Positions 9,601-13,000 of a stretch of DNA of 64,000 nucleotides are shown one piece after another (the stretch's first letter is position 1; each line of letters opens with the position of its first letter). The position numbers were made by a program. The DNA comes from the human T2T-CHM13v2.0 reference genome, Homo sapiens: contig CP086569.2 in NCBI GenBank assembly GCA_009914755.4, forward strand, positions 18,560,001-18,624,000, given 5' to 3'.

Positions 9601-9971
9601 TTCCCTACTGTGGAATAAAAAGAAAGGTTTAACTCTGTGAGCTGAATGCAGACACCACAAAGCAGTTTCACAGATAGCTTCTTTCTGGACTTTGTCACAA
9701 GATATTTTGTTTTTCACTATAGGGCATAGCAGGCTCTGAAATATCCCTTCATACAATCCACAAAAAGAGTAATTCCAAACTGCTGAATCAAAAGAAAGGT
9801 TTAACTCTGTGAGCTAAATCCACACAATACAAATAAGTTACACTGACAGCTATTTTCTGTTGTTTTTATTGTGGGATATTCTGTTACCACCATACGTCTT
9901 AACTGTGCTCTAAAGTATCTCTTTGCATAATCTACAAAAAGAGTTTTTCCATCTGCTGAATCAATAGAAAG

Positions 9972-10004
<33 letters not shown>

Positions 10005-13000
10005 AGATGGATTATTGCTCTGTCACCCAGGCTGGAGTGCAGTGGTGCAATCTCGGCTCACCACAAGCTCTGCTTCACAGGTTCATGCCATTCTCCTCCC
10101 CCAGTCTCCCAAGTAGCTGTTTTTCCCCTTAGGCCTCAGTGGCTCTCAAATGTCCCAGAGTGTTTCCAACCTGCTGAATCAGAAAAAGGTTTAACTCTGT
10201 GAGATGAATCCATACATCACATAGCAGTTTCAAGGATAGCTTCTCTCTAGTTTTTGTCTCAGGATATTCAGTTTTTCCCCATGAGCCACAGTGGGCTTCC
10301 AAATGCCCTTTTGCAATTTCTTCAAAAAGAGTTGTCTCCAACCTGCTGAAACAAAAGAAAGTTTTACCTCTGTGAGATAAATTTACACATCACAAAGCAG
10401 TTTCACAGAGAGATCCTTTCCAGTTTTTACCCCGGGATATTTGACTTTTCCCGATAGGCCTGAATGGAATCCCAAATGCCCCTTAGCAGATTCCTCAAAC
10501 CGAGTGTTTTCAAACTGCCGAATCAAAATAAATTTTTAACCCTGTGAGATTAATTAAAACATCACACAGCAGTTTCACAGAAAGCTACTTTCTAGTTTTT
10601 CTGGGGATATTCTGATTTTCCCCTTAGGCCTCAATGGACTGCCTAATGTCCATTTGCAGATTCTCCACAAAGAGCATTTCCAACCTGCTGAATCCACATA
10701 AAGTTTTAACTTTGTGAGTTGAATACACACATCACAAAGTAGTTACACAGGCAGCTTCTTTCTTGTTTTTATCTGGGGATATTGAGTTTTTCCCAAAAGG
10801 CCTCAGTGGACTTACAAAAGTTCCTTTGCAGATTCTCCAAGGAGATTGTTTCCAACTTGCTGAACCATGAGCATGAAATGTTCCTCCATTTGTTTGTGTC
10901 CTCTTTCATTTCTTTGAGCAGTGCTTTGTTGTTCTCCTTGAAGAGGTCCTTCATGTCCCCTGGAAGTTGGATTCCTAGGTATTTTATCCTCCTTGAAGCA
11001 ATTGTGAATGGGGGTTCACTCATGTTTTGCCTCTCTGTTTGTCTGTTATTGGTGTATAGGAATGCTTGTGATTTTTGCCCTTTGATTTTGTATCCTGAGA
11101 CTTTGCTGAAGTTGCTTATCTGCTTAAGGAGATTTTGGGTTGGGACAGTGGAGATTTCTAAGTATAAAATCATGTGATCTGCAAAGAGGGACAATTTGAC
11201 TTCCTCATTTCCTAATTGAATACCCTTTATTTCTTTCCCCTGCCTGATTGTTCTAGCCAGAACTTCCAACACTATATTGAATAGGAGTGGTAAGAGGGTA
11301 TCCCTGCCTTGGGCCAGTTTTCAAAGTGAATGCTTCCAGTTTTTGCCCACTCAATAGGATATTAGCTGTGGGTTTGTCATAAATAGCTCTTATTATTTTG
11401 AGATATGTCCCATCAATACCTAGTTTATTGAGAATTTTTAGCATGAAGGGCTGTTGAAATTTGTGAAAAGTCTATTCTGCATATATTGAGACAATAATGT
11501 GGTTTTTGTCTTTGGTTCTCTTTATATGATGGATTACGTTTATTGATTCCCATATGATGAACAGCCTTGCCTCCCAGGGATGAAGCCAACTGGATTGTGC
11601 AGGATAAGCTTTTTGATGTGCCGCTGGATTCGGTTTGGCAGTATTTTATTGAGGATTATTGCTTCAATATTCATCAGGGATATTGGTCTAAAATTCTCTT
11701 TTTTTGTTATGTCTCTGCCAGGCTTTGGTATCAGGATGATGCTGGCTTCATAAAATGAGTTAGGGAGGATTCCCTCTTTTCGTATTGATTGGAATAGTTT
11801 CAGAAAGAATGGTATCAGCTCCTCTTTGTACCTTTGGTAGAATTCAGCTGTGAATCCGTCTGGTCCTGCACTTTTTTTGTTAGTAGGCTACTAATTATCG
11901 TCTCCATTTCAGAGCCTCTTATTGGTCTATTCAGGGATTCAACGTCTCCCTGGTTTAGTCTTGGGAAGGTTTATTGCCTATATTCGATTCTTCTCTTTTC
12001 TTCTGTATTAGTCTTGCTAGTGGTCTATCAATTTTGTTGATCTTTCCAAAAAAACCAGCTCCTGGATTCATTTATTTTTGAAGGGGTTTTTTTTAACGTC
12101 TCTATCTCCTTCAGTTGTGTTCTGATCTTAGTTATTTCTCAACTTCTGCTAGCTTTTGAATGTGTTTGTTCTTGATTCTCTAGTTCTTTTAATTGTGATG
12201 TTAGGCTGTCAATTTTAGGTCTTTCCTGCTTTCTCTTGTGGGATTTGGTGCTATAAATTTCCCTCTGCACACTGCTTTAAATGTGTCCCAGAGGTTCTAG
12301 TATGTTTAGTCTTTGTTCTGTTTGGTTTCAAAGAACATCTTTATCTCTGCCTTCATTTCATTATTTACCCAGCAGTCATTCAGGAGCAGGTTGTTCAATA
12401 TCCATGTAGTTGTGTGGTTTTGAGTGTGTTTCTTAATCCTGAGTTCTAATTTGATTGCATTTTCATCAGAGAGAGAGATTGTTATAATATCTGTTCTTTT
12501 ACATTTGCTTAGGAGTGCTTTACTTCCAACTATGTGGTCAATTTTGGAATAAGTGTGATGTGGTGCTGAGAAGAATGTATATTGTTTTGATTTGGGGTGG
12601 AGAGTTCTGTAGATGTCTACTAGGTCCACTTGGTCCACAGCTGAGTTGAAGTCCTGGTTATCCTTGTTAAGTTTCTGTCTTGTTGCTCTGTCTATTTTTG
12701 ACAGTGGGGTGTTACTGTCTCCCGTTATTATTGTGTGGGATTCTAAGTCTCTTTGTAGTCTCTAAGAACTTGCCTTATGAATCTGGTTGCTTCTGTATTG
12801 GATGCATATGTATTTAGGATAGTTAGCTCTTCTTGATGAATTGATCACTTTACCATTATGTAATGGCCTTCTTTGTCTCTTTTGATCTTTGTTGGTTTAA
12901 AGTCTGTTTTATCAGAGACTAGGATTGAAAACCCTGCTTTTTGTTTGTTTGTTTTCCATTTGCTTGGTAGGTCTTCCTCCGTCCGGTTATTTTGAGCCAA

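What the first reader, a model, noticed from the sequence alone, without database searches (positions are those of the whole stretch)
9850..10330. Alpha-satellite family switch coincides exactly with a truncated Alu, and the junction is out of monomer phase
Left of 9974 every monomer belongs to the first family (ACAAAAAG / GAGCTGAATGCACACATC / TTTTTCACTATAGG). Right of 10119 every monomer belongs to the second (CTCCAAAAAG / GAGATGAATCCACACATC / TTTTTACCTGGGGATATTC / TTTTTCCCCATAGG). The two are separated only by an Alu remnant that keeps its tail and right arm (~146 bp) but lacks its 5' half and has no TSD. The flanking monomers are interrupted at different monomer positions, about 80 bp of monomer unaccounted for. 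This looks like a breakpoint joining two formerly separate satellite domains with an Alu at the seam, not a simple Alu insertion.
Basis: seen in the sequence. Interest (0 to 1): 0.5.

Follow-up and report, generated by a model that had tools for sequence, protein, structure and literature searches.

The report
Deletion scar joining two alpha-satellite layers
A half-deleted Alu element sits exactly where one ancient type of centromere-flanking satellite repeat changes to another, marking an old deletion that fused the two; this kind of scar is ordinary in dead pericentromeric satellite.

Summary
A position-blind clustering of 191 aligned monomers splits them at the Alu: 51 of 52 on the left, 139 of 139 on the right. 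An unsupervised change-point falls between the monomers starting at 9772 and 10163. The element at 9974-10119 is T30 plus the last 116 nt of an AluY-like Alu on the minus strand. It has no target-site duplication, whereas the three complete Alus and one complete L1 in the same arrays have 10-16 nt duplications and in-phase flanks. The left flank stops at monomer position about 29, at a TTT/AA site of the kind L1 endonuclease cuts. The right flank resumes at position 110/111, so about 78-80 nt (plus n x 171) are missing. Both families are ancient monomeric alpha satellite with no higher-order repeat, no pJalpha site and no CENP-B box. The junction is best read as a deletion scar. It removed the Alu's 5' 165 nt and an unknown length of satellite, probably including the original transition between the families. 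A later end-joining deletion is more likely than a deletion made by the Alu insertion itself; these tools cannot separate the two. A second scar, a 3'-truncated L1, lies 745 bp away. This is a known kind of feature of low interest.

The parts
49..9973 (+). Alpha-satellite family 1 domain. It is monomeric, with about 28-30% pairwise divergence. It is interrupted by complete Alus at 482-790 and 7851-8135. The leftmost 49-2300 is a hybrid variant.
9945..9973 (+). Last, partial family-1 monomer (monomer positions 1-29). It ends in ...GAAAGTC. The next consensus bases, TT/AA, give an inferred L1-endonuclease-type nick site.
9974..10003 (-). Alu poly(A) tail, read as T30 on the + strand.
10004..10119 (-). 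Alu body, the 3' 116 nt (AluY consensus positions about 166-281). Non-CpG mismatches 9/96, CpG mismatches 9/20. The 5' 165 nt are missing.
10117..10120 (.). Junction between the truncated Alu 5' end and family-2 monomer position 110/111. 1-3 nt (G, or CTG) could be shared microhomology.
10120..10162 (+). First, partial family-2 monomer (positions 111-171). It has C at diagnostic columns 117 and 119 and carries its own 18-nt internal deletion.
10120..10864 (+). Family-2 block of about 4.3 monomers, lying between the two scars.
10865..15262 (-). L1 that is full length at its 5' end but lacks about 1.45 kb of its 3' end and its poly(A). It is joined to alpha monomer position about 18-21 and is a second deletion scar.
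15263..51777 (+). Remainder of the family-2 domain. It is monomeric, with about 22-27% pairwise divergence, and is interrupted by endogenous retrovirus (ERV) fragments, an Alu and a full-length L1.

Best explanation
The junction is a deletion scar inside dead, ancient monomeric alpha satellite.

Step 1 (inferred from the 3' junction): an AluY-lineage element inserted by ordinary L1-driven target-primed reverse transcription into a family-1 monomer. The site was the conserved TTT/AA at monomer positions 29-33. The element was on the minus strand and left its poly(A) tail, which now reads as T30.

Step 2 (inferred): a later double-strand break and end-joining deletion removed three things. These were the Alu's 5' 165 nt, its right-hand target-site duplication, and a run of satellite of 78-80 nt plus n x 171. 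The broken Alu was fused to position 110/111 of a family-2 monomer, with at most 1-3 nt of microhomology.

The deleted interval contained the original family-1 to family-2 transition, so the family switch now coincides with the Alu stump. The Alu is a bystander that marks the breakpoint and sets a maximum age for it. The junction has no function.
For: Shown directly:
- The family switch is a step located at the Alu.
- The Alu is truncated at about position 166, and homology to complete Alus ends exactly at 10119.
- There is no target-site duplication. By contrast, Alus at 482-790, 7851-8135 and 19540-19855 and the L1 at 36086-42753 have 10-16 nt duplications and in-phase flanks.
- 78-80 nt of the monomer are missing.
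- All monomers on both sides share one orientation, as expected for a simple intrachromosomal deletion.

Evidence that post-insertion deletions are frequent here:
- The L1 at 10865-15262 lacks its 3' 1.45 kb and its tail. Target-primed insertion, which starts at the 3' end, cannot produce this.
- ERV gag and env fragments lie in the satellite without an LTR pair.
- Four phase breaks without any transposable element lie inside the arrays.
- Roughly three or more breakpoints in about 30 kb of original L1 and ERV sequence predict about 0.03 breakpoints per Alu. Retrotransposition-mediated deletion occurs in roughly 0.3-0.5% of Alu insertions (figure from memory of Callinan 2005).

Literature: dead divergent alpha arrays carry many deletions and transposable-element insertions and shrink through ongoing deletion (PMC9549924).
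Against: No ancestral or orthologous allele was available; scans of public collections with both flanks found nothing. The deletion is therefore inferred from phase and the missing duplication, and its size is unknown.

Every feature seen is equally expected if the Alu insertion itself made the deletion: the endonuclease-type site, the long tail, the 5' truncation, the missing duplication and the short microhomology.

The preference for a later deletion rests on a rough prior, not on a discriminating observation.
Confidence: 0.6

Rival explanations
1. Alu retrotransposition-mediated (target-site) deletion. The Alu cDNA was primed at the TTT/AA nick in the family-1 monomer. Its 3' end, at Alu position about 166, was joined by microhomology to a distant broken end in a family-2 monomer. 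The intervening satellite was therefore lost in the same event as the insertion.
For: All the hallmarks are present. These are an endonuclease-type site, inferred from consensus columns 29-33, which are conserved in 42-51 of 52 monomers; an intact 30-nt tail; 5' truncation; no target-site duplication; and possible 1-3 nt microhomology. Target-site deletions by L1, Alu and SVA, from a few bp to about 1 Mb, at endonuclease sites and with poly(A) tails, are documented (PMC4859970).
Against: Such events are rare per insertion, about 0.3-0.5% (Callinan 2005, from memory). The local density of ordinary post-insertion scars is high. None of the hallmarks separates this from a later deletion that spared the Alu's 3' junction.
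Confidence: 0.2
2. Pre-existing, already out-of-phase layer boundary. The expanding-centromere process had already placed families 1 and 2 side by side at about this point. A 5'-truncated Alu then inserted at the seam with little or no loss of DNA.
For: Borders between alpha-satellite layers are reported to be abrupt (PMC2729386 Text S1). A primary border need not be in monomer phase.
Against: A target-primed insertion should still leave a 7-20 nt duplication of ...AATAGAAAGTCTTT to the right of the Alu, and none is present. Landing within one monomer of the single major boundary has a chance of about 0.5-4%. The family-2 arrays carry Alus of similar divergence (7.9% against 9.4% at non-CpG sites), so the arrays were already dead when the Alu arrived.
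Confidence: 0.1
3. Endonuclease-independent capture of Alu cDNA as a patch at a double-strand break that joined two satellite ends.
For: There is no target-site duplication and flanking DNA has been lost.
Against: The 3' junction fits a TTT/AA endonuclease site, and the element keeps a long tail. [quoted passage not shown]
Confidence: 0.05
4. Assembly chimera that joined two satellite regions.
For: Satellite regions are prone to misassembly. No read data were available.
Against: A false join would normally occur across a shared repeat. It would not normally create a clean Alu truncation fused to a non-homologous monomer position. The flanks share no long identity.
Confidence: 0.03

Closest known systems
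Post-insertion deletion scars in dead (relic) monomeric alpha-satellite layers
   Same: The arrays are divergent and monomeric and are littered with transposable-element insertions, truncated elements and phase breaks. They shrink by deletion (PMC9549924; PMC2729386).
   Different: Nothing differs in kind. Here one scar happens to span a transition between two monomer families and to have one breakpoint inside an Alu.
Alu retrotransposition-mediated deletion (Callinan et al. 2005) and L1 insertion-mediated deletion (Han et al. 2005)
   Same: The element is 5'-truncated, has a poly(A) tail at an endonuclease-type site, has no target-site duplication, and target DNA is missing.
   Different: That the deletion happened together with the insertion has not been shown and cannot be tested here. 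The reported genomic Alu cases delete up to a few kb of unique DNA (from memory), not satellite layers.
Abrupt borders between alpha-satellite layers in the expanding-centromere model (Shepelev et al. 2009)
   Same: There is a step change of monomer family with no mixing zone.
   Different: This junction cuts through an Alu that entered an already dead array. The exact joint is therefore secondary, not the primary border.
Alu recombination-mediated deletion
   Same: It is an Alu-associated deletion.
   Different: That mechanism leaves a chimeric full-length Alu made from two parental Alus. Here a single fragment abuts satellite DNA.

Membership tests
Classical target-primed (TPRT) Alu insertion | A 7-20 nt target-site duplication flanks the element. 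| tested here: not met
   no repeat abuts the tail and the 5' end. Four control insertions in the same arrays have 10-16 nt duplications.
Classical target-primed (TPRT) Alu insertion | The flanking target sequence is continuous apart from the duplication. | tested here: not met
   monomer position 29 on the left and 110/111 on the right. The monomer family also differs.
Classical target-primed (TPRT) Alu insertion | A poly(A) tail lies at an L1 endonuclease site (TTTT/AA-like). | tested here: met
   T30. The site TCTT/AA is inferred from monomer consensus columns 29-33; the AA side itself is deleted.
Alu retrotransposition-mediated deletion | The Alu has a tail at an endonuclease-type site, has no target-site duplication and is often 5'-truncated. 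| tested here: met
Alu retrotransposition-mediated deletion | The pre-insertion allele contains the DNA that the element replaces, so deletion and insertion were one event. | not testable with these tools
   No primate genome collection was available. Flank scans of public collections found nothing.
Endonuclease-independent (non-classical) Alu insertion | The insertion is not at an endonuclease consensus site and is usually 3'-truncated or lacks a tail. | tested here: not met
   The T30 tail is intact and the inferred site is TTT/AA.
Alu recombination-mediated deletion | A single chimeric, roughly full-length Alu remains. | tested here: not met
   Only positions 166-281 are present, and homology stops at 10119.
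AluY-lineage subfamily | The element carries the Y-diagnostic bases in the right arm (GAATGGCG rather than GAATCGCT; GGAGCTTG rather than GGAGGTTG). | tested here: met
   both diagnostic sites are of the Y type.
Ancient 'pre-A' monomeric alpha satellite (SF8-SF12 umbrella within SF4+) | Monomers of 171-172 bp with no higher-order periodicity. | tested here: met
   median period 171, and identity is flat at lags 1 to 8.
Ancient 'pre-A' monomeric alpha satellite (SF8-SF12 umbrella within SF4+) | Neither pJalpha sites (CTAYGGTGRAAAAGGAA) nor CENP-B boxes are present. | tested here: met
   no exact pJalpha site (one with one mismatch) and no CENP-B box at up to 2 mismatches. The criterion comes from PMC9549924 Supplemental Table 1.
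Ancient 'pre-A' monomeric alpha satellite (SF8-SF12 umbrella within SF4+) | Each side can be assigned to a named suprachromosomal family or monomer class (Ca, Ba, Ja, Aa and so on). | not testable with these tools
   The HumAS-HMMER models were not available. Of the eight published consensus sequences compared (A type, B type, J1, W4, W5, R1, R2, M1), both families are closest to M1 (86%) and A type (85%).
Primary layer border of the expanding-centromere model | The border predates the transposable elements that later entered the dead layers. | tested here: not met
   The joint truncates an Alu, so it is no older than that Alu.

The most novel reading that the evidence does not exclude
The Alu insertion itself deleted a long tract (kilobases or more) of dead centromeric satellite and fused two ancient layers. 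Retrotransposition would then be a direct agent of the shrinkage and re-juxtaposition of relic centromere layers. The neighbouring 3'-truncated L1 scar might belong to the same complex event.
Probability: 0.15. Interest if true: 0.35.

Novelty: already known. Interest (0 to 1): 0.15.

Why it matters
It matters little beyond annotation. The junction gives a datable marker, no older than the Alu, for a secondary rearrangement between two ancient alpha-satellite layers. It also warns that an abrupt layer border in a pericentromere can be a deletion scar and not the primary border left by centromere expansion. Were the deletion shown to have happened together with the Alu insertion, it would be a modest example of retrotransposition reshaping relic centromere layers.

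Tried and rejected
- Chimeric retrocopy. I considered whether, on the minus strand, the L1 5' part, the 745 bp of alpha and the Alu 3' part with its tail could be one template-switched retrocopy. I rejected this because no duplication links the left flank at 9973 to the flank at 15263, and those flanks differ in phase and family.
- Dimeric or higher-order structure as the basis of the 'families'. None was found on either side.
- Gradual drift. This is rejected by the step in log-likelihood, in the first principal component and in k-means.
- Orphan Alu left arm elsewhere in the window, as a reciprocal product. None exists.
- Close paralogs of either flank that might show the pre-deletion state. 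The best matches are only 74-78% identical.
- Exact-match scans of metagenome and prokaryote-genome collections with both flanks and the junction, in the hope of finding human contaminant contigs. All four scans returned nothing.
- Rfam scan of 9000-11000. It gave only sub-threshold noise.
- The two ERV fragments as halves of one provirus. They share no sequence.
- Naming the suprachromosomal families. Published consensus sequences for the ancient classes were not found in the held papers; I retrieved only eight of the 12 classical classes.

Full report
Context. The window is primate pericentromeric DNA. About 205 alpha-satellite monomers, all in one orientation (the + strand is the reverse complement of the conventional monomer), occupy 49-51777 and are interrupted by retroelements. 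Non-satellite sequence follows to 64000. No outside copy of the locus could be retrieved. Four exact-match scans of the metagenome and prokaryote-genome collections with the flanks and the junction returned nothing. Everything below therefore rests on the window itself and on the literature.

Is the family switch real? I cut out 191 near-full monomers with nhmmer and aligned them. The consensus of the 52 monomers left of 9974 differs from that of the 139 to the right at 11 of 171 columns. Leave-one-out log-likelihood ratios are negative for 51/52 left monomers and positive for 139/139 right monomers. A single change-point fitted without prior knowledge falls between the monomers starting at 9772 and 10163, that is, at the Alu. 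Its gain is 1138 bits against a maximum of 461 in 200 order permutations, and the adjacent positions are 9 and 13 bits worse. k-means with k=2, given no positions, reproduces the same split with one exception, the monomer at 1653-1823. The blastn best hits of the left flank all lie in the left domain and those of the right flank in the right domain. The switch is a step, with no mixing zone.

Qualifications to the switch. The leftmost block, 49-2300, is a hybrid variant. The two partial monomers that touch the Alu lean the expected way only weakly. 'Exactly' therefore means within about one monomer.

What the two families are. Neither side has dimeric or higher-order periodicity; identity is flat from lag 1 to lag 8. 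Mean pairwise identity is 0.70-0.74 on the left and 0.72-0.78 on the right. Of the eight published class consensus sequences I compared, taken from the supplement of PMC4496801, both family consensus sequences are closest to M1 (86%) and to the generic A type (85%). The window has no exact pJalpha site and no CENP-B box. By the criterion in Supplemental Table 1 of PMC9549924, this places both in the ancient 'pre-A' layers, SF8-SF12, dated there at about 23-58 Myr. I could not name the exact families because the HMM set was not available.

The Alu. T30 (9974-10003) is followed by 116 nt that align to AluY positions 166-281 on the minus strand. Both right-arm Y-diagnostic bases are present, with 9/96 non-CpG and 9/20 CpG mismatches. 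Independently of those consensus sequences, an alignment with the window's three complete minus-strand Alus shows homology ending exactly at ...AAGTAGCTG (10119). After that point the others continue GGGACTACAGG and this copy continues TTTTTCCCCTTAGG, which is satellite. Its divergence is similar to that of the other Y-like Alus in the window (7-10% at non-CpG sites), so it is an old copy. The pure T30 is not anomalous here. An equally diverged Alu keeps a run of about 22 T, and the monomer's own A5 run has expanded to A26 at 20013-20038.

Not a simple insertion. Three complete Alus (482-790, 7851-8135, 19540-19855) and the full-length L1 (36086-42753) are flanked by 10-16 nt target-site duplications, and the monomer phase continues across them. 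The junction Alu has no duplication. The only shared 8-mer lies 30 nt from the tail. The left flank ends at monomer position 27-29 and the right flank begins at 110/111, so 78-80 nt are missing, modulo 171. No orphan Alu left arm exists elsewhere in the window.

Mechanism. The left junction looks like an ordinary target-primed insertion site. The monomer consensus after ...GAAAG(G/T)(T/C) is TT/AA, and columns 29-33 are conserved in 42-51 of 52 family-1 monomers. This is a typical L1 endonuclease nick site whose T residues would be hidden in the tail. The step is inferred, because the AA side is gone. The right junction joins Alu position about 166 to satellite with at most 1-3 nt of possible microhomology.

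Two histories fit equally well. In the first, a full Alu was later cut by an end-joining deletion. In the second, a target-site deletion was made during the insertion itself; this is a documented outcome for L1, Alu and SVA, ranging from a few bp to about 1 Mb (PMC4859970). I favour the first history on priors. Later deletions are clearly common here:
- Only 745 bp to the right, an L1 that is complete at its 5' end lacks about 1.45 kb of its 3' end and its tail, and abuts satellite out of phase. Target-primed insertion cannot produce this.
- ERV gag and env fragments lie in the satellite without an LTR pair.
- Four phase breaks without any transposable element occur inside the arrays.

Insertion-mediated deletion accompanies only a fraction of a percent of Alu insertions (Callinan 2005, from memory). 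Endonuclease-independent capture fits the intact tail and the endonuclease-type site poorly. Alu-Alu recombination is excluded because there is no chimeric Alu.

Why the family switch sits here. The joint truncates an Alu that must have entered an already dead array, so the joint is secondary and no older than the Alu. Only about 8 of 203 inter-monomer junctions break phase. A pre-existing border would therefore coincide with such a scar by chance only about 4% of the time. The simpler reading is that the deletion spanned the original transition, and possibly much more, and so created the present border. Its size is unknown.

Comparison with what is known, and verdict. Abrupt layer borders are established for relic alpha-satellite layers (PMC2729386). 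So are heavy loads of deletions and transposable-element insertions, and shrinkage by deletion (PMC9549924). However, this is an ordinary deletion scar of a known kind with no functional implication. The only open point is whether the Alu caused the deletion or merely marks it, and comparison with ape orthologs would settle that.

Noticed in passing
window 10864-10865 and 10865-15262: A second non-canonical junction lies 745 bp from the Alu. Alpha monomer position about 18-21 is joined to internal antisense ORF2 of a minus-strand L1. That L1 is complete at its 5' end but lacks about 1.45 kb of its 3' end and its poly(A). The satellite phase jumps to position 78 at 15269.
   Followed up: partly
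window 16373-18339 (minus) and 31069-34726 (plus): Endogenous-retrovirus (ERV) internal fragments are embedded in family-2 satellite without an LTR pair. Pfam matches are Gag_p10 at 2e-13, Gag_p24_C, and HERV-K_env_2 at 1e-19. The two fragments share no sequence.
   Followed up: partly
window 1653-1823 and 49-2300: A single family-2-type monomer sits in phase inside the family-1 domain. The leftmost 2.3 kb is a hybrid variant, with family-2 states at columns 8 and 43 and family-1 states at 117, 119 and 160.
   Followed up: partly
window 20013-20038: A perfect A26 run is an in-place expansion of the monomer's own CCAAAAAGAG A-run. It is not a retroelement tail.
   Followed up: yes
window 5334, 21524-21548, 36019, 43122-43126: Monomer-phase breaks of 30-65 nt occur inside the arrays with no transposable element present. 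They are small deletions or out-of-register exchanges, and none coincides with a family change.
   Followed up: partly
window 36086-42753: The full-length minus-strand L1 has a 16-nt target-site duplication. It carries an extra internal segment of about 718 bp that is absent from the L1 copy at 10865-15262 and not collinear in the L1 copy at 54909-61053 (an inverted match lies at 60317-60841). It also contains inverted internal duplications.
   Followed up: no
window 10120-10162: The first family-2 partial monomer has its own 18-nt internal deletion (monomer positions about 149-166).
   Followed up: yes
window 51778-64000: Alpha satellite ends at 51777. It is followed by an Alu, an AT-rich stretch (GC 0.28-0.30 at 53-55 kb), a plus-strand L1 at 54909-61053 and several Alus.
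   Followed up: no
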